In this document: piece after piece, positions 892 through 21,360 of the stretch
How positions within the stretch are numbered: position 1 is the stretch's first letter
Layout of the letters: the number at the start of each line of letters is the position of its first letter
Source: a virus
Lineage: Duplodnaviria > Heunggongvirae > Uroviricota > Caudoviricetes
Length of the DNA stretch: 33,477 bases
IMG/VR virus record: IMGVR_UViG_3300029193_000102
Location: 1-33,477 of that record
Strand: one strand, 5' to 3'
Translations under genes and position numbers: made by a program
Notes under the pieces: generated by a model
Database searches by the model: none
What the model was told of the DNA's origin: nothing
Seen by the model: the letters and a program-made list of their open reading frames with translations, nothing else

Positions 892-981
892 GGAGAGATG
901 CCGGAGCGGCTGAACGGACCGGTCTCGAAAACCGGAGTGGGGGCAACTCCACCGGGGGTTCAAATCCCCCTCTCTCCGCCA
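892..981 (+). tRNA. serU: tRNA-Ser, anticodon CGA; prophage integration target
   Basis: 90-nt sequence GGAGAGATGCCGGAGCGGCTGAACGGACCGGTCTCGAAAACC...GGTTCAAATCCCCCTCTCTCCGCCA with long variable arm, T-loop GGTTCAAATCC and 3' CCA; anticodon loop CTCGAAA. Confidence 0.9.
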
Positions 982-1026: not shown

Positions 1027-1063
1027 CTTGGAATTACTTGGAATATTTTCTTGGAATATTTTC
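1027..1063. repeat. Three direct copies of CTTGGAAT(T/A) (tandem TTGGAATATTTTC x2 plus one partial) between tRNA 3' end and int stop; candidate integrase arm-type sites of attL
   Basis: Copies begin at 1027, 1037 and 1050; overlap the int stop codon (1034..1036) and lie 46 nt after the tRNA. Confidence 0.4.
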
Positions 1064-2059
1064 AGGTAACGGGACATCAAGTGTCGGTGAAACTTTAACC
1101 TTCCTGTCATAGATTAGCACTTGCCCCTCGGTTTTGTGACCAGAGAAAAGTTGCTTATCCCGACTGCTTCCTTCATAGTCTGAAATTCCTTTCGCCTTCA
1201 GATCATGAAAGGTGAAGTCGGTTAAAATACCTGAAATTTTGCCTGCGCGATTTCTTGCTTCTACCCACATTTCGTTAAAGCCTTTGTACATATATCGGTT
1301 GCCGTATTGATTGCTGATTACATAGGCGGATGTTGGTAACTGTTTTGCTTTTTCGATCGCCGCCTGTAATCGTGGACTCCATGCTTTTATCTGTTTTTTT
1401 CCTGTTTTCCCTTGCTGGATAAAGATCCCGTCGTTTCCAATCTGCTCCCATTTCAGCGATAACACATCGGAAACCCTTGCTGCACACAGATAGGCAATTT
1501 CCATTGCGATAAAAACAGGAAGAGGTGCAACGCTTAATACTGCCTGGTATTCTTTGTCGGTTACATATCGTTCGCGGTTTTTGGCCTTGAATTTACTTAC
1601 ACCTGCACATGGGTTAGCCTTCACGTACCCTCGCTCATACCCCCAACTGTAAACACGGGACATACTGCTTTTTTCATGGTTGGCTTGCGTTTTACTCTGC
1701 TCCCCTCTTTTGTCCATGTATCGACGGATGTGTTCTGGTTTTATGGAATCCGCTGGTACCTTACCGAATACGGCAAGCAACTTTTTTTGATGTTGCAGAT
1801 AATCTTTTTGTGTTCTTGGACTAAGGTCACTGTAATAGGCGCTGGCGAGGAATTTTTCCCACAAGCGACCGAATGTCATTGCACGATCGCGATTATTTAC
1901 AGTTTCCTCATACTTTTTCCATAAAGCAGCTAAACCATCCTTGATGGCGGTTAGTGTGACAGATTCTCTGGATGTTGGTTTCCATACATAACTATATTTA
2001 TTTGGGTATACATTTGGAGGTAATTTTTCGTGTTCAGGATTTTTCCTTCGTCTTCCCAT
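1034..2059 (-). CDS. int: Tyrosine integrase, lambda Int family
   Basis: 341 aa; N-terminus MGRRRKNPEHEKLPPNVY resembles the lambda Int arm-binding domain (MGRRRSHERRDLPPNLY); C-terminal HDLKAKG...GH...LIYDRK catalytic-type motifs; adjacent to tRNA. Confidence 0.9.
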   Translation of the reverse strand: MGRRRKNPEHEKLPPNVYPNKYSYVWKPTSRESVTLTAIKDGLAALWKKYEETVNNRDRAMTFGRLWEKFLASAYYSDLSPRTQKDYLQHQKKLLAVFGKVPADSIKPEHIRRYMDKRGEQSKTQANHEKSSMSRVYSWGYERGYVKANPCAGVSKFKAKNRERYVTDKEYQAVLSVAPLPVFIAMEIAYLCAARVSDVLSLKWEQIGNDGIFIQQGKTGKKQIKAWSPRLQAAIEKAKQLPTSAYVISNQYGNRYMYKGFNEMWVEARNRAGKISGILTDFTFHDLKAKGISDYEGSSRDKQLFSGHKTEGQVLIYDRKVKVSPTLDVPLPENIPRKYSK

Positions 2060-2262
2060 CAGATCGCACCAAAATTCGGCTCTACCTCGCGTGGTGGTAA
2101 AGTTTTATTGCAGGTAAATAGATCCCGGCTGACAATCGGTTTGCCACTACGATTGGTATAGAACGGAAGCCCGTTTTCCATTAACCATTTTCGCTGGTGG
2201 CTTGCATATTTGCAGCCCGTTAATATTAGCAATTCATCTTCGGTTAAAAATAAGCTGCTCAT
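2059..2262 (-). CDS. Excisionase-like small protein (DUF4224-type)
   Basis: 67 aa, stop overlaps int start (ATGA); position immediately upstream of int; MSSLFLTEDELLILTGCKYASHQRKWLMENGLPFY resembles DUF4224 excisionase-like proteins. Confidence 0.6.
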   Translation of the reverse strand: MSSLFLTEDELLILTGCKYASHQRKWLMENGLPFYTNRSGKPIVSRDLFTCNKTLPPREVEPNFGAI

Positions 2263-2320: not shown

Positions 2321-4762
2321 TTAAAAATCAGCCTGACTCGGGATCAGTTTTTGCCAGATAGCTGAAACGTATTTTGCCTGGTAACGAGCGTCATCAAGTG
2401 CATTATGGCGCTCACCTTCGAATGGAATAGCCGTTCTGGCATCGAAGTCTATGGCTTTCCCCAGCTCAACGATTGTGCGTACATCGCGATCGTTGTAGTA
2501 ACGCCACGGGCAGGGGATCCCCTGCCGTTCGTATGAACGGCGCAAAATCGTGTTGTCGAAGTTGGCTCCATTTCCCCAGACCTGAACAAAAAATTCACCG
2601 GAGTTTTCGTCGATAAATTCCCGCAATTGTAACAGTGCATCATCTAACGGGATTTCATCGGTCATAATGGCAGATTGCGCTTCGCGTGATTGCTTAAGCC
2701 ACCATTTAATGGTGTCCCGATCAATGACTCCGCCAGCAGTTTCCAGATCGATAGTCTTACTAAATTCCGGTCCCATATCTCCGGTTTGCGGATCGAAAAA
2801 TATTGCACCTATTGAGATGATCGGGGCATCAGGATTTTTTCCCATGGTTTCAAGGTCGATCATTAGATGGTCACACGTCCTGCTGGTGGATGTGATTTCG
2901 TGATGACCGTTCACCTTAATTGAGTGATCTGCCGTCTCGCCAGTTTTATTATCGCTGGCGTGATGCTGATTGCCGCCAGGGTTCTCCTTGTGTGGATGTT
3001 CAGCGCCTTCCATTTCCTCCGGATCATTTTCCTGAACTTCAACCTGATTCTCTTCATCGAATGTTTCCTGGTATGTTGCGTCGCCCATCACCGCGCCACA
3101 ATCAGGGCAGTTGCCGCCACCGCTCTGACCGCAGGCGGTGCAGACTTTTTCCGGTTCCTGTTGCGCTACTGGTTCGGATTGTTTCGTTTCTGGCTCGTTT
3201 TGTAACGCATTTGGGCTGTTTTGTTCCGCTTTTTGGTCGTTCCGTTCCGATTCATGCTGGTTCTGGTTCACAGAATCGCGAGTCTGGATCCCCTTGACCC
3301 ATTTCGGATCATTAGGGTCGCTAATCCCCTCAACAAATTCACCACGCGATACAGCAAGTAACTTATCGGCGTCAGGCTGGCTGATATTGGCTGCCTGCAT
3401 AATTTTGTTTACTTCGTCAGCGGTGACTTTTACTTGGTTAGCGGAACTCACCTGCGACTGAGCATCCAGCGACTGCGCGTTTTGGCCATGTTCAGTTGTA
3501 TCCGGTTCCATTGTTTCAGTTGTTGCCTGTTCACCTGCCATTGCGTCAGATGGTTGTGGTTTTTCTTCTTCTGTTTCACGCTCAGTAACCACCTCGCGGT
3601 TAATTTCTTCCAGGATATCTTTTTCCGGCGTATGCCGGGCAGCTGTGAGAGTTTCCTTGCTGGGGTTCTCGTGATCAGTTTCCGTCAAATAGGCGTTGAT
3701 ATACCCCTGAAGGCGTCCCGGGTAGTGATAAAATTCAGGGTGTGCGCTTCGGATAAGTGCAAAAATAGCGGCGCGGGAATAGTCCAGAATACCCGGGGTT
3801 GCACGAAGTGCTGCGGACCATTCTTTGAACGGACTTTCTTTGTTCAGGACTACTTCTTTTGCGCGACGATAAACGCTGCCCGGAATTTCATAAATATTAA
3901 AATCCATCGGAAGTGTGGATGCTGCAATCTCCACATCCAGTGTGTCGAGGGTGTGTACTAAATTCGGATTGCGATCGGTTTTGTTCCCACCGCCAGCATT
4001 AGCACCGAAAGCCGTGCGGGTGATGCGTGAAACACGATTTCCTTTCATCCACTCTTTTGTCAGCAGACCCCGATCAGTGTAGTCAGCGTCCAGGTATGCT
4101 TCGAAAAAAGCAGTTATTAGTCCCAGGTCTGAATTACCAGGATTAGGGAAAACTTTGTCAGTGTCACGAACCAGTTTGTGGAGGTCGCGAATCTCCAGCG
4201 AGTCGAGCAGACTGGTTTTATGCGAAATAGCCAGGGCAGTAACAGCCGGTAGTTCTTCAGCCCGTGCAATGTGTAATGCCTGGAGTTCGTCGCGTGAAAC
4301 GTGCGTTACTGGTTTTTCGCTGCCGTGTTGAGCAAGCCAACGAATGGGCAGTTCCTGACCGGAGACAGGCAGAAGCATGCTCTCCTCAATCTCAGTCATG
4401 TCTTCGCCGTTGATGTTGGTATTGTCAGTGCTGGCTGGTTTGTCCCGAACAGAGGGGGAAGGGCCGATAAATGTCATTGTGATGCCATCTTTCCCGCCTT
4501 TTTCATAGCGGTTGCAGAATTCAGTATCAAACACGCCTTCTGGCGGAAGGTCGTCAACAACGGGCAAATTGACGCGGACGGGTTTTTTAAAGTCGTCTTC
4601 ATCATAATCGTTGTCATCCATTGCGGTAATGCAGCGGGAGATTGCAACAGATAATTTTTTTGCTGTAGTCCAGTAAAAACCACCTTTAATTCCTAGGCGT
4701 TTTCTTACTTTGTCATTTTTTGCTTCGCAATATAGTGCAAATTCTTCTTTATCAGTGCTCAT
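2321..4762 (-). CDS. Large exonuclease-like protein: C-terminal DEDDh-type 3'-5' exonuclease domain, central Cys4 zinc ribbon, acidic linker, uncharacterised N-terminal half (possibly the intact form of Qin YdfE)
   Basis: 813 aa; C-terminal motifs [10 protein letters not shown] (Exo I-like) and [13 protein letters not shown] (Exo III H-x4-D-like); [16 protein letters not shown] zinc ribbon; Qin-like gene order int - ydfE - ydfD - dicB. Confidence 0.7.
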
Positions 4763-4855
4763 TATTGGTAAACCTCATCACAGATTTAAGGGTGAACAAA
4801 TCTCTGCCATTGCTGACATATAAGAATGAAACTGGATATTTATTACGGTGCTGTT

Positions 4856-5047
4856 TTAAAGACCTGCCGGGATTTCGTTATTATCCTGGTGAATAACTTT
4901 ATCGACCGGATAACAGTTGCCTGGAATTTTCTGTTCGGTTGCTGCTGCCATACATTCCTGCATTGTTCTGTGAACACTGACTGCAATATCAACTGGCTCT
5001 CCGGAAACAAGAAAAACCGTCAGAATAAGTGCAAATACTGGATTCAT
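4856..5047 (-). CDS. ydfD: YdfD-like small protein with N-terminal hydrophobic segment (Qin lysis-associated peptide)
   Basis: 63 aa from ATG 5045..5047 with AGGA upstream; MNPVFALILTVFLVSGEP... signal/TM-like N-terminus; directly downstream of dicB as in Qin. Confidence 0.55.
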   Translation of the reverse strand: MNPVFALILTVFLVSGEPVDIAVSVHRTMQECMAAATEQKIPGNCYPVDKVIHQDNNEIPAGL

Positions 5048-5232
5048 TGTGCACATCCTTTTGGCATCAGACGTAAACGGGCCAGCATTGAGACAATGCA
5101 TACTTTATTTAATAACTCCCGTTCGTGTTTTCTTTTGTTAATGGCATCTTCAGTAAATACAGGATTACTGATAGTGACGCCAATTTCAAAACAACCTTCA
5201 GACGTATTAACGTTTGGTAATAACGTTTTCAT
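5044..5232 (-). CDS. dicB: DicB cell-division inhibitor
   Basis: 62 aa from ATG 5230..5232 with GAGGA 8 nt upstream; MKTLLPNVNTSEGCFEIGVTISNPVFTEDAINKRK... matches recalled E. coli K-12 DicB in length and sequence. Confidence 0.7.
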   Translation of the reverse strand: MKTLLPNVNTSEGCFEIGVTISNPVFTEDAINKRKHERELLNKVCIVSMLARLRLMPKGCAQ

Positions 5233-5401
5233 TATCGCGTCCTCAACAATGAATTTTGTGATGCAGTGCCTGGTGCCTCCAGGTGACGTTAACCAGTTAA
5301 CAATTAACGCCGGATACAGAGAATCCACCCATAACACTGTTTTTGGTTTTAACTGTTCCGCGTGCGCTCAGCCGCATTCACCACATCACAAAATTCACTT
5401 T

Positions 5402-5459
5402 AAAAAGGGCGGCAGAGCAGTCACGGAGTAAAACTGATACCGCCAAACGTCACCAGAAA
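5402..5459 (-). ncRNA. dicF: DicF small RNA (53 nt at 5407..5459) with 3' stem-loop and U-tract
   Basis: Minus-strand sequence TTTCTGGTGACGTTTGGCGGTATCAGTTTTACTCCGTGACTGCTCTGCCGCCC followed by TTTTT matches recalled DicF; lies upstream of dicB as in the Qin dicB operon. Confidence 0.7.
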
Positions 5460-5799
5460 ATTGATAACAGAGGGCGTTGCAGCGGGGTTGTCACTTAAGC
5501 GTATGGTCAACCTGACAACCCGGTGTCCTCAACGGGGAAGGAATAACCCCGCCATACTTACCGCCGCGCCATTTCGCGGGTTGCCACAACCGGAAGCGCA
5601 CGGTCGACGAAAATTTAACGACAGGCTATCTATGAACCAGCTACCTCGCCGTGTGCTTTCGCGTTATGCTCTGACTTTTCAGAGAAATATCCTTTCAGTA
5701 AACTGTCAGTGCCGGATGTTCACCCGTGTCCGGCGCACGCACTCCACTTCACCCGTGGAGAACTCCTTAATTACCAACCTTAGCTTCGTTGGTTAGCTA

Positions 5800-6018
5800 T
5801 TAACGCGGGTATGTAATCATTCTGGCAATGCTTAATGCCGCTGCTTTTTCCAGATTGGTGATATCCTGCTCCAGAGCGGACAGATTTTCAGCCTGCTTAG
5901 CCCTGGCTTCATTGGCCCATTTCAGATCCTGCGCTGCATTAATTTTCTGGCGCATCCACTCATAAAGTTCATCATCGGTATAGTCTGGCGCGATGATGAC
6001 GGGTTCTCGTTTCTGCAT
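5800..6018 (-). CDS. Hypothetical 72-aa protein (position and size equivalent to Qin YdfC)
   Basis: ATG 6016..6018 with AAGGAG 6 nt upstream; predicted coiled-coil-rich small protein; same strand as the dicB module. Confidence 0.5.
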   Translation of the reverse strand: MQKREPVIIAPDYTDDELYEWMRQKINAAQDLKWANEARAKQAENLSALEQDITNLEKAAALSIARMITYPR

Positions 6019-6089
6019 GTCGGCTCCTTGTGGTTAGCGTTGCCTGCTTTTAACCACGTCAGGCGAGGTGGTATCCTCTGAGGGGTCTG

Positions 6090-6446
6090 TTACTCGAGAG
6101 GAAATTGGTTATGAGTACAATCAAGTTTTCTTGCCCAGAATGTGGTGGCGAAGTCTTTGACACATCCTTTAAGCCGCAGGGCTCTGACAGTTTCGCGGGA
6201 GCCATCTGCAAAAATTGTGGTCACCTTGTAACTGAAGATGAGTCCTCGCAGTTCGATGATGAAATCGTTGACAATATCTTCGGTGCACTCACCAGAGACT
6301 TTCTGAAGTAAAGGCGCATACCGCTTAGTTACCGCTCTGATAATTCTTACCTGTCCGGCAATGGCGCTGATGTCAATATAAAGCGCCATTGCTGCTTCTT
6401 TGCCGATCCCGGGATGCCTTCCATTCTGATGTTTGACTTCGCCCAC
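6090..6446 (-). CDS. Hypothetical 118-aa protein (GTG start); conflicts with the antisense zinc-ribbon ORF at 6111..6311
   Basis: AGAGGA 7 nt upstream of GTG 6444..6446; same strand as the surrounding early-left operon; no recognisable motif. Confidence 0.3.
   Translation of the reverse strand: MGEVKHQNGRHPGIGKEAAMALYIDISAIAGQVRIIRAVTKRYAPLLQKVSGECTEDIVNDFIIELRGLIFSYKVTTIFADGSRETVRALRLKGCVKDFATTFWARKLDCTHNQFPLE
6111..6311 (+). CDS. Hypothetical 66-aa zinc-ribbon protein (CPECGG...CKNCGH); antisense to the 6090..6446 ORF
   Basis: ATG 6111 with GAGAGGAAA upstream; two CxxC pairs ~22 residues apart; opposite strand to neighbouring genes. Confidence 0.35.
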   Translation: MSTIKFSCPECGGEVFDTSFKPQGSDSFAGAICKNCGHLVTEDESSQFDDEIVDNIFGALTRDFLK

Positions 6447-6636
6447 TGAGAAATCCTCTGTTTCCCCTTAACGCCGGGGTAGCGGAACAAAAACCTGCTG
6501 CATAGTTATTAAAGTTGAACCCTGCCGTCATGTTCTTACGCCTCGGGCTGGCTACTTAACCCCTGACCACTGCCTGGTAACTCGAAGTATTGCCCTGCAT
6601 TCTGTGGGGCGGGGTGGGTTGGTATGAAAAGAAGGA

Positions 6637-6673
6637 TACCCATAGGTATTTAAAAAGTAAATACCTATGGGTA
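6637..6673. promoter_or_regulatory. 16-bp perfect inverted repeat TACCCATAGGTATTTA / TAAATACCTATGGGTA (5-bp spacer); candidate operator upstream of the dicB-type operon
   Basis: Arms at 6637..6652 and 6658..6673; lies in the 270-bp non-coding gap between the repressor gene stop and the first early-left ORF. Confidence 0.35.
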
Positions 6674-6715
6674 AATTTTTGCGGTGTCTTAACTGGTGAC
6701 TAGTTGTTTGGTGAG

Positions 6716-7135
6716 CTATGATGCGTTTTGTGCTTTCTTTTTACGGATTTCTTCGTAGATCATATTGTAATACTGTTTTTTCTCTTCAAGAGTTTTTAAT
6801 AATTTATCCGCTTCACTTTCTGGCAGTTCGTCTAAGAGATCTAAAAAAATACGTTGTCGTGGCGTTAGAACCCTTGTTTCATAACTGGAGGCTGTGTTCG
6901 TTGATGATGAAACGATACCATCCATCCATCCCCGGGGTAACCCAAAGGACTCTTCGATAATCTCCACCATATCATCAGCGATCCGTTTTTTTCCCTTTTT
7001 CCCCTCTGGGTACAACATTCTTGATACATAAGAAGGCTCGCGCCCGATCTTTCTGGCCACGTTAACCGCTTTACCATCGCATTTCTCATCACGAATTTTG
7101 ATGAGTTGCTGTCGTCTAAATTCATATTTGTCCAT
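6716..7135 (-). CDS. Prophage repressor, HTH (DicA/RacR-like immunity repressor), possibly translated leaderless
   Basis: 139 aa; HTH-like segment GKAVNVARKIGREPSYVSRML; C-terminal FLDLLDELPESEAD resembles recalled DicA; divergent from a Cro-like gene; no SD before the ATG but a TATTAT -10 (7142..7147) sits just upstream. Confidence 0.7.
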   Translation of the reverse strand: MDKYEFRRQQLIKIRDEKCDGKAVNVARKIGREPSYVSRMLYPEGKKGKKRIADDMVEIIEESFGLPRGWMDGIVSSSTNTASSYETRVLTPRQRIFLDLLDELPESEADKLLKTLEEKKQYYNMIYEEIRKKKAQNAS

Positions 7136-7141
7136 AGGTAA

Positions 7142-7211
7142 ATAATAGATGCGATTACCGCAAGGTAAACAACCTGTGGGTATTGACTTTTGTTTACCTG
7201 TGGGTATTCTT
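7142..7211. promoter_or_regulatory. Divergent promoter/operator region: direct repeats ACCTGTGGGTATT (7172..7184, 7196..7208) overlapping a rightward promoter (-35 TTGACT 7183..7188, -10 ~7205..7211) and a leftward promoter (-35 GTTTAC 7165..7170 rc, -10 TATTAT 7142..7147 rc)
   Basis: Repeats and hexamers read directly; spacings 16-17 bp; placement between the divergent repressor and Cro-like genes. Confidence 0.4.
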
Positions 7212-7235: not shown

Positions 7236-7517
7236 ATGGAAGAATTAAGAATATTTCTCAATTCTCTTTCGTCAGATGAACAGCGTATGTTTGCATGCGA
7301 GTGTGGTACCAGCATCGGTTATCTAAGAAAGGCATTGAGTAAAGGTCAAGTGTTAGGGGCATCGTTATGTGTCCTTATTGAGCGAGCCAGTAATGGTGAA
7401 GTTACACGTCAGCAACTAAGGCCTTTTGATTGGATGAATATTTGGCCCGAGCTGGAAGATACCAAAACGTTAACACAACCACTTTCTAGGAGCTTGATTC
7501 ATGAAAATCAAGCATGA
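7236..7517 (+). CDS. Cro-like HTH regulator (YdaS/DicC-like)
   Basis: 93 aa; AAGGAG SD 7 nt upstream; HTH segment CGTSIGYLRKALS; QLRPFDWMNIW resembles recalled Rac YdaS; divergent from the repressor. Confidence 0.7.
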   Translation: MEELRIFLNSLSSDEQRMFACECGTSIGYLRKALSKGQVLGASLCVLIERASNGEVTRQQLRPFDWMNIWPELEDTKTLTQPLSRSLIHENQA

Positions 7518-7926: not shown

Positions 7927-7948
7927 AAGCACGGTGTTCGGGGGGTTT

Positions 7949-8911
7949 ATGAGCAGCAAGCTTCATGGTCTTGTCTGGGAAGGGTGCGCCTTCACCGGCA
8001 TGATCTTATCCAGGGTGGCGGTTATGGCCCGTCTTGCAGACTACAGCAATGACGAGGGCGTGTCATGGCCTGCCATTGAAACTATCCGGCGTCAGATCGG
8101 TGCAAGAAGTGAATCCACAGTGAAATCGGCTATTGCAGAACTGGCGAAAGAGGGCTGGCTGACGAAGGAAGAGCGTAAGGTCGGTGGGCGTAATGTAAGC
8201 AATATCTATCGGCTTAATGTGGAAAAACTCGAAGCAGCTGCGGCGGCGGCGCGTGAGTCATATAAACCGAAAAGAAAAATTAGCCCGGCAAAAAATGACC
8301 CGTTAACAGTTGACCCGTCAAATATTGACCCCTCAACGGTTGACCCGTCAAATTTTGATGGATCAACTGTTGATAAAAAACTGCCGATTAGGGGGGCGAT
8401 GATTGACCCCGATCCGTCAGTATTAAAACCTGATCCGTCAGATAAAAGATCTTCTTGTCCGGACGCTTCGCAACCGGACCCGCAGACGGCTGAACAGGAT
8501 TTTTTAACCCGACACCCTGACGCGGTTGTGTTCAGTGCGAAAAAACGCCAGTGGGGAAGTCAGGAAGATTTGGTGTGCGCACAGTGGATCTGGGGACGAA
8601 TCGTGAGTCTTTACGAGCAGGCGGCCAGCTATGATGGCGAGATCACTAGACCGAAAGAACCCAACTGGACAGCATGGGCCAATGACGTTCGCACAATGCG
8701 GATGCTGGATGGCAGAACTCACAGACAAATTTGTGAAATGTTTGGGCGTCTCCAGCGGGATTCGTTCTGGGTAAAAAACATCATGAGTCCGGCAAAACTC
8801 CGGGAAAAATGGGATGAACTGGTTATCCGCCTGGGGCGTTCGCCTGCGCAGCGTTGCGTGAATCACATTTCTGAACCGGACACTGAAATTCCGCCGGGCT
8901 TCAGGGGGTGA
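7949..8911 (+). CDS. Replication initiator (lambda O-like role) with N-terminal winged-helix domain and internal pentapeptide repeat
   Basis: ATG 7949 after G-rich SD (ORF track starts at GTG 7934); N-terminal HTH-type domain; immediately followed by a DnaC-like loader; contains iteron array. Confidence 0.7.
   Translation: MSSKLHGLVWEGCAFTGMILSRVAVMARLADYSNDEGVSWPAIETIRRQIGARSESTVKSAIAELAKEGWLTKEERKVGGRNVSNIYRLNVEKLEAAAAAARESYKPKRKISPAKNDPLTVDPSNIDPSTVDPSNFDGSTVDKKLPIRGAMIDPDPSVLKPDPSDKRSSCPDASQPDPQTAEQDFLTRHPDAVVFSAKKRQWGSQEDLVCAQWIWGRIVSLYEQAASYDGEITRPKEPNWTAWANDVRTMRMLDGRTHRQICEMFGRLQRDSFWVKNIMSPAKLREKWDELVIRLGRSPAQRCVNHISEPDTEIPPGFRG
8310..8441. repeat. Iteron-like direct repeats (TTGACCCGTCAAAT family) with exact 15-bp periodicity inside the initiator gene; candidate replication origin
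   Basis: Copies start at 8310, 8325, 8340, 8355, 8370, with degenerate copies at 8403 and 8431; they encode the repeated VDPSN(I/F)D peptide. Confidence 0.5.
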
Positions 8912-8917
8912 CGTGTC

Positions 8918-9664
8918 ATGAAAAACATTGCGGCAGTTGGGGTTCTTGAACGTATTCGCAGACTTGCACCACAGGGGGCGGTTCCACCGTACCGGACGGT
9001 GGAGGAGTGGCGGGAATGGCAACTTGCTGAAGGACGAAAACGCAGCGAGGAGATTAACCGCCAGAATCGCCAGTTGCGGGTGGAAAAAATCCTGAATCGT
9101 TCGGGCATTCAGCCTCTGCACAGCAAATGCTCGTTTGCAAATTATCAGGTGCAGAACGACGGGCAAAAATACGCGCTGAGCCAGGCCAAATCCATAGCTG
9201 ACGAACTGATGACCGGGTGCACGAATTTTGTGTTCAGCGGTAAAACCGGCACCGGGAAAAATCACCTTGCAGCGGCGATGGGCAACCGGCTGATGGTGAA
9301 GGGGCGCAGCGTGATTATCGTCACCGTTTCTGACGTCATGAGCGTGTTGCATGACAGCTACGACAACGGCAAATCCGGGGAAAAATTTTTACAGGAGCTT
9401 TGCGGGGTTGATTTGCTGGTCCTGGATGAAATAGGCGTTCAGCGGGAGACGAAAAACGAGCAGGTGGTATTGCACCAGATAATTGATCGCCGGACAGCAT
9501 CACTGTGCAGTGTCGGGATGTTAACAAACCTGAATCATGCCGCAATGAGTACGCTTCTTGGTGAGAGGATTATGGACCGCATGACCATGAACGGTGGTCG
9601 ATGGGTGACGTTTAACTGGGATAGCTGGCGTCCAAATGTCAGCAATATGAGGGTTGTGAAGTAA
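8918..9664 (+). CDS. DnaC-like helicase loader (IstB-type AAA+ ATPase)
   Basis: 248 aa; Walker A GKTGTGKNHLAAAMG, Walker B LLVLDEIG. Confidence 0.85.
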   Translation: MKNIAAVGVLERIRRLAPQGAVPPYRTVEEWREWQLAEGRKRSEEINRQNRQLRVEKILNRSGIQPLHSKCSFANYQVQNDGQKYALSQAKSIADELMTGCTNFVFSGKTGTGKNHLAAAMGNRLMVKGRSVIIVTVSDVMSVLHDSYDNGKSGEKFLQELCGVDLLVLDEIGVQRETKNEQVVLHQIIDRRTASLCSVGMLTNLNHAAMSTLLGERIMDRMTMNGGRWVTFNWDSWRPNVSNMRVVK

Positions 9665-13206: not shown

Positions 13207-13465
13207 ATACAGCGAACGCCATTGGTTTAGTTGGATATTTACTGTGCCGGACAAAAACGGTTTGCGGGGAAATCTTAGTTAAGTAGAATAACTGCGGGTG
13301 CTTGAGGCTATCTGTCTCAGGCATGAACACCAAAAGGCAGATAGAGAAAAGCCCCAGTTAACATTACGCGTCCGGCAAGACGCTTAACATTAATCTGAGG
13401 CTCAATCTATGAACGGCAAATCTAGGTTAGCCTCTTACGTGCCGAAAGGCAAGGAGAAGCAGGCT

Positions 13466-13621
13466 ATGAAGCAGCAAAAGGCGATGTTAGTCGCCCTGAT
13501 CGTCATCTGTATTACCGTCATTGTGACGGCACTGGTAACGAGGAAAGACCTCTGCGAGGTACGAATCCGAACCGGCCAGACGGAGGTCACTGTCTTCACA
13601 GCTTACGAACCTGAGGAGTAA
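13466..13621 (+). CDS. hok: Hok/Gef-family type I toxin (HokD/RelF-like)
   Basis: 51 aa MKQQKAMLVALIVICITVIVTALVTRKDLCEVRIRTGQTEVTVFTAYEPEE, near-identical to recalled HokD; AAGGAGAAG SD 7 nt upstream. Confidence 0.8.
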   Translation: MKQQKAMLVALIVICITVIVTALVTRKDLCEVRIRTGQTEVTVFTAYEPEE

Positions 13622-13691
13622 GAGACCAGGCGAGGGGGAAATCCCTCGCCACCTCTGATGAGTCAGGCATCCTCAACGCACCCGCACTTAA

Positions 13692-13717
13692 CCCGCTTCG
13701 GCGGGTTTTGTTTTTTC
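13692..13717 (+). terminator. Rho-independent terminator after hok
   Basis: CCCGC-TTCG-GCGGG followed by TTTTGTTTTTTC. Confidence 0.55.
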
Positions 13718-15121: not shown

Positions 15122-15487
15122 ATGACCGAACGCATAGAATTTGTTTTGCCTTACCCGCCGACGGTGAACACTTACTGGCGACGCCGTGGCAGCACATATT
15201 TTATCTCGGAGGAGGGAAAGCGTTATCGCCGGGCTGTGGCGCTTATTGTTCGCCAGCAGCGGCTGAAATTAAGCCTGTCCGGAAGGCTGGCGATAAAGGT
15301 GATTGCAGAGCCACCGGATAAGCGTCGTCGCGACCTGGACAACATTCTGAAAGCACCGCTGGATGCGCTGACGCATGCGGGAGTGCTCATTGATGACGAG
15401 CAGTTTGATGAAATCAATATTGTACGTGGTCAGCCAGTATCTGGTGGACGGCTGGGTGTGAAGATTTACAAAATTGAGAGTGAGTGA
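15122..15487 (+). CDS. rusA: Holliday junction resolvase RusA
   Basis: 121 aa; matches recalled RusA motifs LPYPPTVNTYWRRRG and DKRRRDLDNILKAPLDALTHAGVLIDD. Confidence 0.85.
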   Translation: MTERIEFVLPYPPTVNTYWRRRGSTYFISEEGKRYRRAVALIVRQQRLKLSLSGRLAIKVIAEPPDKRRRDLDNILKAPLDALTHAGVLIDDEQFDEINIVRGQPVSGGRLGVKIYKIESE

Positions 15488-16050
15488 GCGTAAATATGAT
15501 ATATCCGGAAATTACAGGCAAAAGCGGCGAGCATTTGCGTCTAAAAACGCTGGAAGCAGTCTGGATCCAGGGGAAATTACGGATGTGGGGGCGGTGGTCG
15601 TATATTGGCGGCGGTAAGACGGGAAATATGTTCAACCAATTACTGACCTCTAAAAAGCTGACAAAAACGGCAATTAACGAGGCGCTCCGGAGGATGAAAA
15701 AAGCTGGTCTGGACAAACCTGAACTTGAGGCTTTTTTGCGGGATATGATCAACGGCAATCAAAAAAGCTGGCTGGCACATTGTACCGATTCAGAGGCGTT
15801 AATAATCGACAGGGTTATTGGTGAAGTCCTGGCAGGCTATCCCGGGCTGCTCAATGTCCTGAGTCAGCGTTATGTGGGGCGGGGGATGACTAAGCGCAAA
15901 ATGGCTGAACTGCTGAATGATGCACACCCGGAATGGAGTTTAAGAACCTGTGAAAGACGCATTGAGCATTGGCTAAAGGTGGCAGAATTTATTTTGTACA
16001 AACCAATGGTTATGGCTTTTGGTATAGAGAAAAAAGTTATTGCTTTTTGA
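15484..16050 (+). CDS. Putative late-gene antiterminator (Q-like), assigned mainly by position
   Basis: 188 aa; lies between rusA and a strong terminator that precedes the late genes; alternative start ATG 15496. Confidence 0.5.
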   Translation: MSVNMIYPEITGKSGEHLRLKTLEAVWIQGKLRMWGRWSYIGGGKTGNMFNQLLTSKKLTKTAINEALRRMKKAGLDKPELEAFLRDMINGNQKSWLAHCTDSEALIIDRVIGEVLAGYPGLLNVLSQRYVGRGMTKRKMAELLNDAHPEWSLRTCERRIEHWLKVAEFILYKPMVMAFGIEKKVIAF

Positions 16051-16127
16051 CGTAAAAACTGCTTCAATTCCGGTACGCTTCGCAAAGCTGTACCACGAGG
16101 CGAATAGCAGACATGGACATTTGAAAG

Positions 16128-16151
16128 AGCCCGCTTTTTGCGGGTTTTTTT
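16128..16151 (+). terminator. Rho-independent terminator downstream of the Q-like gene (tR'-like)
   Basis: CCCGC-TTTTT-GCGGG followed by TTTTTTT. Confidence 0.6.
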
Positions 16152-16274
16152 ATGCCTGAAAAACGGCACAGAACATTAAACGCGCTGGTGGTTGCGAATA
16201 CCGGTCTTTCAGCTTGCTGGCTTTTCCGACAAGAGTTATTGGTATGTTACGTTAACCAGAAAAGGGAAAAAGAC

Positions 16275-16472
16275 ATGCTAAAACAGCAGGATATGACCGA
16301 AACCGCCAGAGTGGTGTTTAATGAGTTAAGCGTCACCGAACCGGCGACAGTCGGGGAGATTGCACAGAATACTTACCTTTCACGCGAACGCTGCCAGTTA
16401 ATACTGACCCAGCTTGTTATGGCGGGTCTGGCAGACTATCAGTTTGGTTGTTACAGACACCTTCAGTCCTGA
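16275..16472 (+). CDS. Small winged-helix-like protein (65 aa)
   Basis: ATG 16275 with AAAGGGAAAAAG upstream; TVGEIAQNTYLSRERCQLILTQLVMAGLADY; stop codon sits inside a terminator hairpin. Confidence 0.4.
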   Translation: MLKQQDMTETARVVFNELSVTEPATVGEIAQNTYLSRERCQLILTQLVMAGLADYQFGCYRHLQS

Positions 16473-16486
16473 AGGCTTTTTTATTT
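16460..16486 (+). terminator. Rho-independent terminator
   Basis: CCTTCAG-TC-CTGAAGG followed by CTTTTTTATTT. Confidence 0.5.
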
Positions 16487-16804
16487 GTGGTAAATTGGCG
16501 GCTGGTGGGTGTGGTGGTTGTTGCTTTCCCGTTGCTGAAAAAGAAAACGCCAGACTGTTAGCCGGGTATCAGTTATCTGGAGAAATTTTTAAATACCTCA
16601 CAATTCAGGCGGTTGACTGTTGTCTGGTTTGCGGGGAGTTTGTTAAAAGAAACTGGCATGGTGAATCCCCCTGTGCGGAGGGGCAATCAGCAACTGGTGT
16701 TTTGTCACCGACCCTTATCCTTTCTGTGCGGGTTCAGGTGCTGATACTGAACTCACCGGGAGGCACCCGGCATCATGTGCATGATGATACAGATACGCGG
16801 CTTT

Positions 16805-16830
16805 AGCCCCTCTCCGGAGGGGCTTTCTTG
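16805..16830 (+). terminator. Rho-independent terminator (plus strand)
   Basis: AGCCCCTC-TCCG-GAGGGGCT followed by TTCTTG. Confidence 0.45.
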
Positions 16831-16835
16831 TGGGC

Positions 16836-16861
16836 AAAAAAAAGCCCGAGTGGGTTCGGGC
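16836..16861 (-). terminator. Rho-independent terminator (minus strand), convergent with the previous one
   Basis: A8 run then GCCCGA-GTGGGT-TCGGGC on the plus strand, i.e. hairpin plus U-tract on the minus strand. Confidence 0.4.
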
Positions 16862-17043
16862 AACAGCATGAGATATACATTTTTATAATCGAATGGATTT
16901 TAACCAGAATTCATAAGGCTGCGCAACTGCGCGGTCTTTTTCGAATTGCGGGCTGTCGTCTCTCTTCTGCCATTGTCCTGTAACTTCCGGACTTCAGCCT
17001 GCTCCTTATCTGACTCACAATATTATCCCGGCCGGGAGGATTC

Positions 17044-19014
17044 ATGGCATTTAAACACTACGATGTGGTCAGGGCGGCATCGCCGTCAGACCTTGCGGAT
17101 GCGCTTGCTCAAAAAATTCGTGAAGGATGGCAACCATACGGCGGGCCGTTTTCTTCGTACACGGATGATGGCGCAGCACTTATTCAGGCGATTGTCGCAG
17201 AAGGTAATGTCACCACACCTGTGGTGGTGAAGCCGTCGGATGGAGAAGGCGCAGTTATCAGCACCACCAGCAACCCGGAGTATTACTTTGTTGTTGCCCT
17301 GGCCGGGCAGTCAAACGGTATGGCGTATGGTGAAGGGCTTCCGCTGCCGGAGACATATGACCGTCCGGACCCGCGTATTAAACAGCTGGCGCGTCGCAGC
17401 ACTGTCACGCCGGGTGGTGCGTCCTGTAACTACAATGACATTATTCCTGCGGACCACTGCCTGCATGATGTTCAGGATTTGAGTAAGTTTTCACACCCGA
17501 AAGCCAGCGCAGCTCAGTATGGATGCGTGGGGCAGGGATTACATATCGCGAAGAAATTGTTGCCGTTTATTCCGGCGAATGCCGGTATTCTTCTGGTTCC
17601 GTGCTGCCGTGGGGGTTCTGCATTTTTGGCGGGCGATGAAGGTACCTTCAGCGAATCCACCGGCGCAAGCGAGACCTCGGCACGCTGGGGTGTAGATAAG
17701 CCACTGTACAAGGACCTGCTTACCCGTACTCAGGCCGCACTGAAGGCCAACCCTAAAAATATTCTGCTTGCAGTGGTCTGGATGCAGGGCGAGTTTGATT
17801 TGAAACAGGGTGCATACGCCACTCAGCCGGGGCTGTTTGATTCCATGGTGGAAAAATATCGTTCTGACCTGTCGGAATTCGGAGGTCAGTGTCTCGGGGG
17901 CTCTCCGTCATCAGTTCCCTGGATTTGTGGCGACACGACCTACTACTGGAAGCAGACTTATTCTTCGCAATACGATGCGGTGTATGGTGCATACAAGACG
18001 AAATCCGCAAAAAAAATCTTCTTTGTGCCGTTTATGACGGATGAAAACGGGCGAAATGTGGGTACCAACGAGCCGTCAGAAGATCCGGATGTTGCGGATA
18101 TTGGGTATTACGGAGCCGGTGGTCGAACGGACGCCAAAACCTGGACGACGGCTGACCGTAAAACGCATTTTGGATCATGGGCACGTCGTGGGATTATTTC
18201 CGACCGTCTGGCAACGGCGATTCTTGTGCATGCCGGGAGAACCGCTGAATTCATTACCGGAAAACAGCCTGATACGGTGAAGCCCACCGGACCTTCCGGT
18301 GAAGGTACGGAGAGAGAGCCGGAAGGTCCGGTCAGTAACCGAACCCTGATGAGTCTGCTGGCGTCCGGCGAAGACCTGGCATCACAGGGCTGGCGCTATT
18401 ATCACAAACCGGCGAGCGGAGACAATGTTAACAAAAACATTGCTGAAGCGGTGGTCAGTGATGCGGGGGCTACGGGAGGTAAGGCCCTGCAACTGAATAA
18501 ACCGGAAAACCACATCTGGTTTCTGGAGCATGATGCAGCCGGGCAGGGGGCAGAGTTGCTGAAGAAAGGAGGACGTGTGAGCGTACGGTTTAAGTTGCCG
18601 GGTTCACTGGTGCCGAATCAGTTTGCCCTGGGCATTTACTGGCAGTTGTCGTCCCTGCCGGAGGGAGTGACGCTGGCAGAGGAAGGCAACGACATGCTGA
18701 TGTCCTTCTTCCTGCAGACGGATGCGACGAACCTGAACGCGATGCACCACAAGAAGCCGAATGCGAAGCTGGAAACGTTCGGGGTCTTTGATAACGGATG
18801 GCACACACTGGCTTTTGAGTTTGCCGGAAACAACAGCATTCAGGTGACGCCGGTACTGGATGAGAAACGGGGGACGCCGTTCACACTGGTGAAATCTCCG
18901 GCATCAGGGGCGGTGGACAAACTGCAACTGACAGGCATATCAAAGGCGGCGACATATACGCTGCTGATTGACAGTGTGAAGGTGGAAGTGAACAACGCGG
19001 ACATCGCGGCATGA
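17044..19014 (+). CDS. nanS: Prophage sialate O-acetylesterase (NanS-p type; DUF1737 N-terminus plus SGNH/SASA esterase domain)
   Basis: 656 aa; GGAGG SD; N-terminus MAFKHYDVVRAASPSDLADALAQKIREGWQPYGG; esterase motif ALAGQSNG; position between Q and lysis genes as in Stx phages. Confidence 0.8.
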   Translation: MAFKHYDVVRAASPSDLADALAQKIREGWQPYGGPFSSYTDDGAALIQAIVAEGNVTTPVVVKPSDGEGAVISTTSNPEYYFVVALAGQSNGMAYGEGLPLPETYDRPDPRIKQLARRSTVTPGGASCNYNDIIPADHCLHDVQDLSKFSHPKASAAQYGCVGQGLHIAKKLLPFIPANAGILLVPCCRGGSAFLAGDEGTFSESTGASETSARWGVDKPLYKDLLTRTQAALKANPKNILLAVVWMQGEFDLKQGAYATQPGLFDSMVEKYRSDLSEFGGQCLGGSPSSVPWICGDTTYYWKQTYSSQYDAVYGAYKTKSAKKIFFVPFMTDENGRNVGTNEPSEDPDVADIGYYGAGGRTDAKTWTTADRKTHFGSWARRGIISDRLATAILVHAGRTAEFITGKQPDTVKPTGPSGEGTEREPEGPVSNRTLMSLLASGEDLASQGWRYYHKPASGDNVNKNIAEAVVSDAGATGGKALQLNKPENHIWFLEHDAAGQGAELLKKGGRVSVRFKLPGSLVPNQFALGIYWQLSSLPEGVTLAEEGNDMLMSFFLQTDATNLNAMHHKKPNAKLETFGVFDNGWHTLAFEFAGNNSIQVTPVLDEKRGTPFTLVKSPASGAVDKLQLTGISKAATYTLLIDSVKVEVNNADIAA

Positions 19015-19631: not shown

Positions 19632-19707
19632 GCCTGCGCAAGGGACCATCGGTGTGTGCCGGTGGTCTTTATATTGTTGTGAGCTTCCGGATAACGGGAG
19701 ACGGGGT

Positions 19708-19923
19708 ATGTACCAGATGGAAAAAATCACAACAGGTGTGTCATACACCACGTCAGCGGTGGGAACGGGCTACTGGTTCCTGCAGTTGCTGGACAGGGTT
19801 TCCCCGTCTCAGTGGGCGGCAATAGGCGTGCTGGGGAGTCTGCTGTTTGGGCTGCTGACGTACCTGACTAACCTGTATTTCAAAATCAGAGAGGACCGGC
19901 GTAAGGCGGCGCGGGGAGAGTAA
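19708..19923 (+). CDS. Holin with dual-start motif (MYQM)
   Basis: 71 aa; two Met codons at 19708 and 19717; TM segments; resembles recalled DLP12 EssD-type holins (..[40 protein letters not shown]). Confidence 0.8.
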
Positions 19924-21228: not shown

Positions 21229-21360
21229 ATGCCAGACAAACTCATAACGCTGGCGAAGATCCTCTGTGTAATTGTCGGCATTTCATTTTCACTAATGCTG
21301 GTTGCTCTTTTTCTTTCCATGGCCTGGATGATGTTGTCTTCGTCGGGGCTGCTGGGGTGA
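21229..21360 (+). CDS. Hypothetical 43-aa membrane peptide
   Basis: ATG 21229 with AAGGGAGGA 7 nt upstream; highly hydrophobic. Confidence 0.3.

What the first reader, a model, noticed from the sequence alone, without database searches (positions are those of the whole stretch)
4856..5459. Qin-type dicB module (DicF sRNA, DicB, YdfD) inside an otherwise complete lambdoid prophage
The minus strand at 5407..5459 reads TTTCTGGTGACGTTTGGCGGTATCAGTTTTACTCCGTGACTGCTCTGCCGCCC plus a U-tract, which I recognise as the 53-nt DicF sRNA. Downstream on the same strand are a 62-aa DicB-like ORF and a 63-aa YdfD-like ORF with a hydrophobic N-terminus. These host-targeting functions (division inhibition, lysis) are best known from the defective Qin prophage; here they sit in a prophage that still has integrase, replication, lysis and morphogenesis genes.
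Basis: partly seen in the sequence, partly recalled or inferred. Interest (0 to 1): 0.5.

Follow-up and report, generated by a model that had tools for sequence, protein, structure and literature searches.

The report
Known DicF–DicB–YdfD prophage cassette
The window carries a textbook copy of the E. coli prophage cassette ydfC–dicF–dicB–ydfD (a small RNA and two small proteins that block cell division and lyse the host), sitting in the early-left operon of a lambda-like prophage; this cassette is found in most E. coli genomes and in isolated phages, so the finding is correct but ordinary.

Summary
Window 5407..5459 (-) is 53/53 identical to K-12 DicF and hits Rfam DicF at 76.7 bits (cut-off 48). 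The 62-aa ORF is DicB (Pfam 135 bits, 60/62 identical to K-12). The 63-aa ORF is YdfD (DUF1482, 57/63 identical, hydrophobic N-terminus). ydfC upstream is 72/72 identical.

Homology to Qin covers one 1,248-bp block (4771..6018). The block lies between a full-length exonuclease gene and a non-DicA immunity region with its own operator repeats. It therefore lies where a lambdoid early-left (PL) operon lies. The prophage looks intact as far as the window reaches; it ends inside the tape-measure gene.

None of this is new. The cassette matches 4,748 of 5,426 complete E. coli genomes, often several times per genome. It also occurs in 60 phage records, including the isolated phages Tritos and mEp460_ev081. 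A 2023 paper already remarked on dicB/dicF in a functional temperate phage.

One side result may be unreported. The 174-nt dicF–dicB leader is a diverged structural homologue of the prophage sRNA family STnc100, closed by a ~20-bp helix that holds the published RNase III cut.

The parts
5407..5459 (-). dicF, 53-nt DicF sRNA: single-stranded 5' part, terminator hairpin, then a U-tract at 5402..5406
   Evidence: Rfam RF00039 76.7 bits, full model. 53/53 identical to K-12. Hairpin fold -15.9 kcal/mol.
5044..5232 (-). dicB, 62-aa cell-division inhibitor
   Evidence: Pfam DicB 135.4 bits and NCBIfam 134.3 bits. 60/62 identical to K-12. 7 synonymous against 2 non-synonymous codon changes.
4856..5047 (-). 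ydfD, 63-aa DUF1482 lysis protein with a hydrophobic N-terminus. Its start overlaps the dicB stop (ATGA).
   Evidence: Pfam DUF1482 87.9 bits. 57/63 identical to K-12. Hydropathy 2.08 over residues 1-15.
5800..6018 (-). ydfC, 72-aa first gene of the conserved cassette. The left edge of homology to Qin is at its start codon.
   Evidence: 72/72 identical to K-12 YdfC. blastn block 4771..6018 at 96.6% to Qin.
5460..5799 (-). ydfC-dicF spacer, the DicF precursor region. Published work in K-12 places the RNase III (190-nt species) and RNase E (53-nt species) cuts here.
   Evidence: 11 differences to K-12, all in the first 149 nt. The last 191 nt are identical. Processing data: PMC10448788.
5233..5406 (-). 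dicF-dicB leader: three-hairpin RNA domain closed by a ~20-bp helix (GUGAAUUUUGUGAUGUGGUG / CACUGCAUCACAAAAUUCAU) that ends just before the dicB ribosome-binding site. It is STnc100-like.
   Evidence: 0 differences to K-12 in 174 nt. Fold. Rfam STnc100 34.4 bits, below the cut-off of 47. 11 pairs changed on both sides. Reciprocal model hit.
2321..4762 (-). 813-aa exonuclease downstream of ydfD on the same strand. The gene at this position in K-12 Qin (ydfE) is a truncated pseudogene next to IS2.
   Evidence: Pfam Exonuc_VIII (N-terminal part) plus Rv2179c-like 3'-5' exoribonuclease domain (C-terminal part). NCBIfam exodeoxyribonuclease VIII 937.9 bits, below its equivalog cut-off of 1269. K-12 annotation.
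6637..6673 (.). Candidate left operator (OL): two perfect copies of TACCCATAGGTA forming a 16-bp-stem palindrome. A candidate PL on the minus strand overlaps it (-35 TTTACT 6661..6656, -10 TATCCT 6638..6633; inference only). It could also act as the terminator of the repressor gene.
   Evidence: Motif search: all 7 hits in the window fall here or at 7129..7206. Palindrome followed by a T-run. Sequence.
6716..7135 (-). Prophage repressor, 139 aa, of DicA-like build but different specificity. No peptidase domain was found.
   Evidence: phrog_5736 transcriptional regulator, 234 bits. 39% identical to the Tritos CI. 33% identical to DicA over the C-terminal 46 aa only. No Pfam hit.
7129..7206 (.). 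Candidate right operator (OR): three copies of the same 12-mer between the repressor and cro-like genes
   Evidence: Promoter-like sites at 7169..7142 (-) and 7183..7210 (+).
1034..2059 (-). Integrase, 341 aa, next to tRNA-Ser (892..978). This is the distal end of the leftward transcription unit.
   Evidence: Pfam Phage_integrase plus N-terminal domains. tRNA. Same 341-aa ORF annotated as integrase in ON470583.

Best explanation
This is an ordinary, intact copy of the dicBF cassette (ydfC, DicF precursor, dicF, structured leader, dicB, ydfD). It sits in the leftward early (PL-type) operon of a lambdoid prophage integrated at tRNA-Ser next to mtfA.

Shown here: the identity of each part, the gene order, the limits of the cassette, and the immunity region with repeated operators on both sides of the repressor gene.

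Inferred from K-12 experiments on identical or near-identical sequence:
- In the lysogen the prophage's own repressor (not DicA) holds the operon nearly off.
- When repression is lifted, one long transcript runs through ydfC and the precursor region.
- RNase E makes the DicF 5' end. The DicF hairpin and U-tract terminate part of the transcripts, giving the 53-nt form.
- Read-through transcripts are cut by RNase III in the long helix just downstream (72-nt form). They carry dicB and the translationally coupled ydfD, and probably the exonuclease, excisionase-like and integrase genes.
- DicF pairs with ftsZ, manX, xylR and pykA mRNAs.
- DicB brings MinC to the septum through ZipA, and with MinC also blocks the ManYZ route of phage DNA entry.
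- YdfD causes lysis through IspG inhibition.

The net effect is a halt of host division and exclusion of competing phages, comparable to lambda Kil in the same operon position.
For: - Identity: Rfam DicF 76.7 bits and 53/53 identity to K-12. DicB and YdfD pass their curated family cut-offs at 60/62 and 57/63 identity, and ydfC is 72/72.
- Purifying selection: 7 synonymous against 2 non-synonymous codon changes in dicB, and 2 against 0 in ydfC.
- Processing determinants: 418 contiguous non-coding nt around DicF are identical to K-12. The K-12 mapping of RNase E and RNase III cuts and the absence of an internal promoter therefore carry over (PMC10448788; PMC5069750).
- RNase III site: the predicted ~20-bp helix begins 9 nt after the DicF 3' end (GUGAAUU... 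from 5398). The reported 72-nt end (53+19) falls at 5388, inside its 5' arm.
- Operon position: all genes from ydfC to int are on the minus strand, downstream of the repressor gene. The operator 12-mer occurs only at 6637..6673 and 7129..7206, on either side of that gene.
- Same layout elsewhere: the isolated phages Tritos (DicF annotated) and mEp460_ev081 have it. In Shigella Stx phage 75/02 the same leader precedes kil instead of dicB.
- Published functions: PMC5069750, PMC6832061, PMC8835842.
Against: - There are no expression data for this prophage.
- The PL promoter is only a weak consensus match (8/12) and was not picked up by the scan.
- About 620 nt separate the candidate operator from ydfC. 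They contain a plus-strand zinc-ribbon gene (6105..6311) that the transcript would have to cross antisense.
- No N-like antiterminator was recognised, yet the DicF terminator sits inside the operon.
- The repressor has no self-cleaving peptidase domain, and the Qin antirepressor gene rem has no match in the window. The inducing signal is therefore unknown.
- YdfD has six substitutions, four of them in the hydrophobic N-terminus. Its activity is assumed, not shown.
Confidence: 0.85

Rival explanations
1. The cassette works mainly in the lysogen as a host-benefit (lysogenic conversion) module. Low-level or condition-dependent expression (stationary phase, low oxygen) gives DicF-based metabolic and virulence regulation and DicB-based resistance to lambda-type phages. 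It would not be a lytic-cycle takeover function.
For: - In K-12, DicF accumulates in stationary phase despite DicA repression (PMC10448788).
- Brief dicBF expression lowers lambda-vir plating to 4% through DicB (PMC6832061).
- The same paper cites work showing that O157:H7 DicF copies act under microaerobic conditions.
- The cassette is kept in 4,748 of 5,426 genomes, including decayed prophages such as Qin.
Against: It does not exclude the main explanation, because both use the same transcript and the same parts. The cassette is also kept in isolated, plaque-forming temperate phages (PMC10448788), where a role in the phage's own cycle is expected. Nothing in the sequence separates the two roles.
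Confidence: 0.1
2. The cassette has its own promoter and is expressed independently of the prophage's immunity region.
For: An older study suggested a promoter upstream of dicB (mentioned in PMC10448788). The cassette travels with at least four different repressor types.
Against: Primer extension and RNase mutants in K-12 found no additional promoter (PMC10448788), and the window is identical to K-12 over that region. No promoter-like site on the minus strand lies inside 4856..6018.
Confidence: 0.04
3. The ORFs and the sRNA are decaying remnants with no function, or the DicF match is a chance resemblance.
For: None beyond the small size of the genes.
Against: Full-length ORFs, curated family scores far above their cut-offs, an excess of synonymous changes, a 53/53 match and E 1.9e-15.
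Confidence: 0.01

Closest known systems
dicBF operon of the defective Qin prophage, E. coli K-12 (ydfABC-dicF-dicB-ydfDE)
   Same: ydfC, the DicF precursor, dicF, the leader, dicB and ydfD are in the same order and spacing, 96.6% identical over 1,248 bp. DicF and 418 nt around it are identical.
   Different: - No ydfA or ydfB upstream. A different segment with a plus-strand zinc-ribbon gene lies there instead.
- The repressor is not DicA (33% identity over the C-terminal 46 aa only) and has different operators.
- rem has no match in the window.
- The downstream exonuclease is full length and differs in sequence from the ydfE remnant.
- The surrounding prophage keeps replication, lysis and morphogenesis genes that Qin has lost.
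Isolated temperate coliphages Tritos (OV696610) and mEp460_ev081 (LR597641)
   Same: int, xis, exonuclease, ydfD, dicB, dicF, then the immunity region, in the same order and strand. DicF is annotated in Tritos. DicF scores 72.5 and 76.7 bits in the two phages.
   Different: Different immunity: the Tritos CI is 39% identical, and mEp460_ev081 has a C2/DicA-type repressor. mEp460_ev081 lacks ydfC. The integration sites differ.
Lambda kil in the PL operon
   Same: A small division inhibitor that acts on the FtsZ ring, encoded in the early-left operon between the recombination genes and the immunity region (PMC3961180, listed). In Shigella Stx phage 75/02 a kil gene follows the same conserved leader that precedes dicB here.
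   Different: There is no sequence relation between Kil and DicB. DicB acts through MinC and ZipA, and Kil acts on FtsZ with ZipA. Lambda has no DicF.
STnc100 (Rfam RF02076) / PasD prophage sRNA family
   Same: The dicF-dicB leader shares the closing helix and two hairpins, with the invariant GGUGAAU and the UCACC-NGG-AGGCA-CCN-GGCA motif. 11 base pairs are changed on both sides. The model matches are reciprocal.
   Different: - The leader scores 34.4 bits, below the family cut-off of 47.
- Its first hairpin is in another register.
- It has no terminator of its own.
- Its closing helix is lengthened to ~20 bp.
- It lies in the early-left operon as the 5' leader of dicB, not near Q and the late genes.

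Membership tests
DicF sRNA (Rfam RF00039) | Covariance-model score at or above the gathering score over the full model | tested here: met
   76.7 bits against 48, model 1-52/52, E 1.9e-15.
DicF sRNA (Rfam RF00039) | Sequence of the experimentally characterised K-12 DicF, including both target-pairing regions | tested here: met
   53/53 identical.
DicF sRNA (Rfam RF00039) | 3' intrinsic terminator hairpin followed by a U-tract | tested here: met
   Hairpin -15.9 kcal/mol, then UUUUU.
DicF sRNA (Rfam RF00039) | [quoted passage not shown] | not testable with these tools
   Only the sequence determinants could be compared. They are identical to K-12 over 418 nt. Experiments: PMC10448788, PMC5069750.
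DicB (Pfam PF05358 / NCBIfam NF049927) | Profile score above the curated cut-off over the full 62-residue length | tested here: met
   135.4 bits against 27, and 134.3 bits against 100. Residues 1-62 match model positions 1-62.
DicB (Pfam PF05358 / NCBIfam NF049927) | MinC- and ZipA-dependent division block | not testable with these tools
   60/62 identical to the tested K-12 protein. The substitutions are Q36H and I44V.
YdfD (Pfam DUF1482) | Profile score above the cut-off; ~63 aa; hydrophobic N-terminal segment | tested here: met
   87.9 bits against 25. 63 aa. Hydropathy 2.08 for residues 1-15. No NCBIfam model matched.
YdfD (Pfam DUF1482) | Lysis on expression; binding to IspG | not testable with these tools
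   57/63 identical to K-12 YdfD. 6 synonymous and 6 non-synonymous codon changes. Function from PMC8835842.
Qin-type dicBF operon | Gene order ydfC - dicF - dicB - ydfD on one strand, downstream of a lambdoid repressor gene | tested here: met
Qin-type dicBF operon | Control by DicA/DicC and the antirepressor Rem; ydfA and ydfB at the head of the operon | tested here: not met
   The repressor is only distantly DicA-like (24.5 bits against a cut-off of 101; 33% identity over 46 aa). ydfA, ydfB and rem have no match in the window.
STnc100 (Rfam RF02076), for the dicF-dicB leader 5233..5406 | Covariance-model score at or above the gathering score | tested here: not met
   34.4 bits against 47. E 4.6e-4 for the whole window.
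STnc100 (Rfam RF02076), for the dicF-dicB leader 5233..5406 | Shared secondary structure kept by compensatory changes | tested here: met
   Three of four helices are 96-100% paired, with 11 pairs changed on both sides, against 34-43% paired when the partners are slid. A model built from leaders alone finds every Rfam STnc100 locus at 42-46 bits.

The most novel reading that the evidence does not exclude
The 174-nt stretch between dicF and dicB is not a plain spacer. It is a diverged member of the STnc100/PasD structured-RNA lineage that has been turned into the 5' leader of the division-inhibitor gene (dicB here, kil in Shigella Stx phage 75/02). Its closing helix, lengthened to ~20 bp, is the RNase III target. 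Cleavage would do three things at once: trim DicF to the 72-nt form, release a ~100-nt structured RNA, and reshape the 5' end of the dicB mRNA next to its ribosome-binding site. The toxic downstream genes would then be set by RNase III and by read-through of the DicF terminator. The structural homology is well supported here. The regulatory role is speculation. I found no mention of this relation in the papers that discuss STnc100.
Probability: 0.3. Interest if true: 0.35.

Novelty: already known. Interest (0 to 1): 0.12.

Why it matters
As stated, the finding adds nothing new. DicF, DicB and YdfD are well studied. The cassette is in the large majority of E. coli genomes. Its presence in large lambdoid prophages and in a functional temperate phage is already in print.

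Its practical value is for annotation. PGAP-style records label dicB, ydfD and ydfC but usually not dicF, and here the sRNA can be placed exactly. The window also shows the cassette in what looks like its native setting: a full early-left operon under a non-DicA repressor. That supports the view that Qin is a decayed relative and that the cassette is a mobile block shared among phages of different immunity.

The side observation on the STnc100-like leader could interest people who study how dicB or kil expression is kept in check.

Tried and rejected
- Chance or decay: rejected by the scores, the identity and the substitution pattern.
- The whole prophage as a Qin relative: rejected. blastn homology to the 25-kb Qin region is limited to 4771..6018, hokD, the ydfU region, the holin and the lysozyme.
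- The 118-aa minus-strand ORF 6090..6446 as first gene of the operon: probably not a gene. It has no family match. The overlapping plus-strand ORF is an ECs_2282 zinc-binding family member (57.2 bits against 37), and 6 of 7 substitutions fall on that ORF's third codon positions.
- Another Rfam family in the 340-nt region upstream of DicF: none at E up to 1.
- An internal minus-strand promoter in the cassette: none in the consensus scan.
- The vB_Eco* 'phage' records as proof of function: rejected. They are partial records that include host genes such as mtfA and lolCDE, so they are prophage regions.
- STnc100 family membership of the leader: not met at the curated cut-off. It is reported as a relation, not as membership.

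Full report
**1. What is in the sequence**

Read on the minus strand, the region has the following parts:

| Part | Window coordinates | Size |
|---|---|---|
| ydfC-like ORF | 6018..5800 | 72 aa |
| Non-coding stretch | 5799..5460 | 340 nt |
| TTTCTGGTGACGTTTGGCGGTATCAGTTTTACTCCGTGACTGCTCTGCCGCCC, then TTTTT | 5459..5407 | 53 nt |
| Non-coding stretch | 5406..5233 | 174 nt |
| ORF (dicB) | 5232..5044 | 62 aa |
| ORF (ydfD), start overlapping the previous stop (ATGA) | 5047..4856 | 63 aa |

A scan of the whole window against Rfam places DicF (RF00039) at 5458..5407 on the minus strand. The match covers the whole model at 76.7 bits, against a gathering score of 48, with E 1.9e-15.

**2. Identity tests**

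I fetched the K-12 MG1655 Qin region and compared it with the window.

| Part | Identity to K-12 | Family score |
|---|---|---|
| DicF | 53/53 | Rfam 76.7 bits (cut-off 48) |
| YdfC | 72/72 | no family model matched |
| DicB | 60/62 (Q36H, I44V) | Pfam DicB 135.4 bits (27); NCBIfam DicB 134.3 bits (100) |
| YdfD | 57/63 | Pfam DUF1482 87.9 bits (25) |

- Four of the six YdfD changes are hydrophobic-for-hydrophobic in the N-terminal segment. The first 15 residues have a mean hydropathy of 2.08.
- Codon changes against K-12 are 7 synonymous to 2 non-synonymous in dicB, 2 to 0 in ydfC, and 6 to 6 in ydfD.
- The DicF hairpin folds at -15.9 kcal/mol and is followed by five U.

**3. Limits of the cassette and its setting**

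blastn of the whole window against 25 kb of K-12 Qin gives one block of 1,248 bp (4771..6018, 96.6%). That block starts at the ydfC start codon and ends 85 nt past ydfD. The only other matches are short or weaker ones to hokD, the ydfU region, the holin and the lysozyme. The cassette is therefore a mosaic block, not part of a Qin-like genome.

*Downstream, same strand:*
- An 813-aa exonuclease (2321..4762), with an Exonuc_VIII N-terminal region and an Rv2179c-like 3'-5' exoribonuclease domain.
- A DUF4224 excisionase-like gene (2059..2262).
- A 341-aa integrase (1034..2059).
- tRNA-Ser (892..978), next to mtfA.

*Upstream:*
- A 139-aa repressor (6716..7135, minus strand; phrog_5736).
- A cro-like gene (7236..7517) and a YdaT-like gene on the plus strand.

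The repressor is 39% identical to the CI of phage Tritos. It resembles DicA only over its last 46 residues (33%). It has no Pfam peptidase domain.

The 12-mer TACCCAYAGGTA, allowing two mismatches, occurs seven times in the window (2.6 expected). All seven copies fall in two clusters: 6637..6673 and 7129..7206. The first cluster is two perfect copies forming a 16-bp-stem palindrome. The two clusters lie on either side of the repressor gene, which is the layout of lambdoid left and right operators. I infer that the cassette lies in the PL-type operon of this prophage and is held off by this repressor, not by DicA. The promoter itself (-35 TTTACT 6661..6656, -10 TATCCT 6638..6633) is my reading of the sequence only. 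It matches the consensus at 8 of 12 positions and was not reported by the scan.

**4. Is the prophage otherwise complete?**

Within the window I found these genes:

| Function | Coordinates |
|---|---|
| O-like replication gene | 7934..8911 |
| DnaC-like replication gene | 8918..9664 |
| Q antiterminator | 15484..16050 |
| Holin | 19654..19923 |
| Endolysin | 20342..20875 |
| Rz, with embedded Rz1 | 21357..21830 |
| Small terminase | 22537..23013 |
| Large terminase | 23010..25133 |
| Portal | 25342..26844 |
| Protease-capsid fusion | 26642..28813 |
| Major tail protein | 30547..31293 |
| Tape measure, open to the end of the window | from about 32170 |

No insertion sequence or broken gene was seen. 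Two things limit the claim. The window stops inside the tape-measure gene. In addition, the gap-free, 98.8%-identical integrase of strain AVS0196 is marked 'frameshifted' by PGAP, although another record annotates the same 341-aa ORF as integrase. 'Complete' is plausible but not shown.

**5. How common is this?**

- A 1.4-kb query (4700..6100) matches 4,748 of 5,426 complete E. coli genomes, and 2,676 of them over at least 80% of its length. The median is two places per genome and the maximum is ten.
- It matches 60 phage records. These include Tritos, where DicF is annotated as a feature between dicB and the ydfC homologue, and mEp460_ev081. They also include Stx2a- and Stx2c-converting phages.
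- In 2016 Balasubramanian et al. reported the locus in several O157:H7 lambdoid prophages but found none in about 2,000 phage genomes (PMC5069750).
- In 2023 Ragunathan et al. wrote that a functional temperate phage, mEp460_evo81, carries dicB, dicF, dicAC and rem (PMC10448788).

The point that made the finding look interesting is therefore already published and is visible in public records.

**6. How it most likely works**

The 418 nt from 191 nt upstream of DicF to the dicB start codon are identical to K-12. Over the same comparison dicB differs at 9 of 189 nt and ydfD at 14 of 192 nt. The K-12 results therefore apply directly:
- No promoter lies inside the operon.
- RNase III makes the 5' end of a 190-nt species.
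- RNase E makes the 5' end of the 53-nt species.
- The 3' end comes from termination at the DicF hairpin, or from RNase III, which gives a 72-nt form (PMC10448788; PMC5069750).

The fold of this stretch shows a helix of about 20 bp (GUGAAUUUUGUGAUGUGGUG with CACUGCAUCACAAAAUUCAU). It starts 9 nt after the DicF 3' end and finishes a few nucleotides before the dicB ribosome-binding site. The 72-nt end (53+19) falls at 5388, inside its 5' arm.

Published functions then give the expected outcome:
- DicF represses ftsZ, manX, xylR and pykA.
- DicB blocks division through MinC and ZipA, and with MinC blocks the ManYZ route of phage DNA entry.
- YdfD lyses cells through IspG (PMC5069750, PMC6832061, PMC8835842).

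Open points for this prophage:
- The inducing signal is unknown. The repressor has no peptidase domain and rem has no match in the window.
- It is unclear how transcription passes the DicF terminator to reach the exonuclease, excisionase-like and integrase genes.
- The effect of a plus-strand zinc-ribbon gene (6105..6311, ECs_2282 family) lying antisense to the transcript is unknown.

**7. A side result: the dicB leader is STnc100-like**

A permissive Rfam search on two divergent relatives gave a below-threshold hit to STnc100 (RF02076) over the dicF-dicB leader. The window's own leader scores 34.4 bits (cut-off 47). E is 1.1e-5 in an 801-nt search and 4.6e-4 in the whole window. A genuine STnc100 lies in the late region of the same window (16627..16835, 130.6 bits).

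I aligned six leader-type and three STnc100-type sequences and counted pairs for a structure I specified:
- The closing helix and two hairpins are 96-100% paired.
- 11 pairs are changed on both sides.
- When the partners are slid by one to three columns, 34-43% of cells pair.
- No shuffle of 500 reached the covariation score.
- The first hairpin, in the Rfam register, does not hold in the leaders (71% paired).
- The sequences form only two clades, so the 11 pairs reflect few independent events.

As a reciprocal test I built a model from seven leader sequences alone. It found nothing else apart from the dicF-dicB leaders themselves (both strands) and one E = 0.4 match at window 6630..6680.

The core of the leader is invariant in nine loci. 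One of them is Shigella Stx phage 75/02, where kil replaces dicB and the sRNA at the DicF position is not recognised as DicF.

A 2026 preprint relates PasD to STnc100 but does not mention DicF or dicB. A 2025 paper places STnc100 downstream of stx2 and leaves its function open. I treat this as a supported structural relation with an unknown role.

**8. Verdict**

- Observation: confirmed.
- Interpretation: supported, with 'complete prophage' unproven.
- Novelty: already known.
- Interest: low (0.12).
- Most novel reading not excluded: the STnc100-like, RNase III-cut leader acts as a regulator of dicB or kil expression (probability about 0.3, interest about 0.35 if true).

Noticed in passing
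window 5233..5406 (-); compare window 16627..16835 (+): The dicF-dicB leader is a diverged structural homologue of the STnc100 prophage sRNA family. Rfam scores it at 34.4 bits, below the cut-off. 11 base pairs are changed on both sides. The closing helix is lengthened to ~20 bp and contains the published 72-nt DicF RNase III end.
   Followed up: yes
L009 (Shigella phage 75/02 Stx) 2760..3253; L006 (STEC711) 1786..2240; L007 (AF6) 2149..2200: The DicF position holds different sRNAs in relatives. AF6 has a DicF with a different 5' 14 nt (61 bits). STEC711 and the Shigella Stx phage have another hairpin that Rfam does not call DicF, while the flanks and the leader stay conserved. In the Shigella phage the leader precedes kil instead of dicB.
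   Followed up: partly
window 6637..6673 and 7129..7206: The operator-like 12-mer TACCCAYAGGTA occurs only in two clusters that flank the repressor gene. The left cluster is a perfect 16-bp-stem palindrome followed by a T-run, so it could serve as both operator and terminator.
   Followed up: partly
window 6105..6311 (+), overlapping ORF 6090..6446 (-): A 68-aa ECs_2282-family zinc-ribbon gene lies on the plus strand, antisense to the presumed early-left transcript. 6 of 7 substitutions against relatives fall on its third codon positions, so it rather than the 118-aa minus-strand ORF is probably the real gene.
   Followed up: partly
window 2321..4762 (-): The 813-aa 'exonuclease VIII' has the RecE-type N-terminal region joined to an Rv2179c-like 3'-5' exoribonuclease domain. 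It scores below the NCBIfam equivalog cut-off (937.9 against 1269). No RecT/Bet-type partner gene lies next to it.
   Followed up: no
window 15484..19014: The late region resembles Stx-converting phages (~90% identical to Stx2a phages). It has Q, STnc100 (16627..16835), an AsxR/AgvB-type anti-sRNA exactly at the Rfam cut-off (16839..16891, minus strand) and a NanS-p-type esterase (17044..19014). There is no room for stx genes, so this is an stx-negative relative.
   Followed up: partly
window 13296..13715: A hok/sok type I toxin-antitoxin locus: Rfam sok at 112.4 bits, and 13452..13715 is 95.8% identical to Qin DNA spanning hokD. The Qin antirepressor gene rem, which follows hokD in K-12, has no match in the window.
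   Followed up: partly
window 6461..6629: A ~165-nt segment just downstream of the candidate left operator is 97-99% identical in Tritos, vB_EcoS-689R5 and STEC711, although their neighbouring genes differ. It may be a conserved start of the early-left transcript. Its function is unknown.
   Followed up: no
window 1034..2059 (-) and L004 13009..14059: PGAP flags the integrase as 'frameshifted' in strain AVS0196, although that sequence has no gaps relative to the window's 341-aa ORF. Whether the integrase is intact is unsettled.
   Followed up: partly
phage collection hit H47 (Aeromonas phage AP1, MT713136, 249906..250152): A 98.8%-identical copy of window 5223..5469 (DicF plus leader) sits in a 254-kb Aeromonas phage record with no annotated feature. 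This is an odd host for an E. coli element and may be an assembly or contamination artefact.
   Followed up: no
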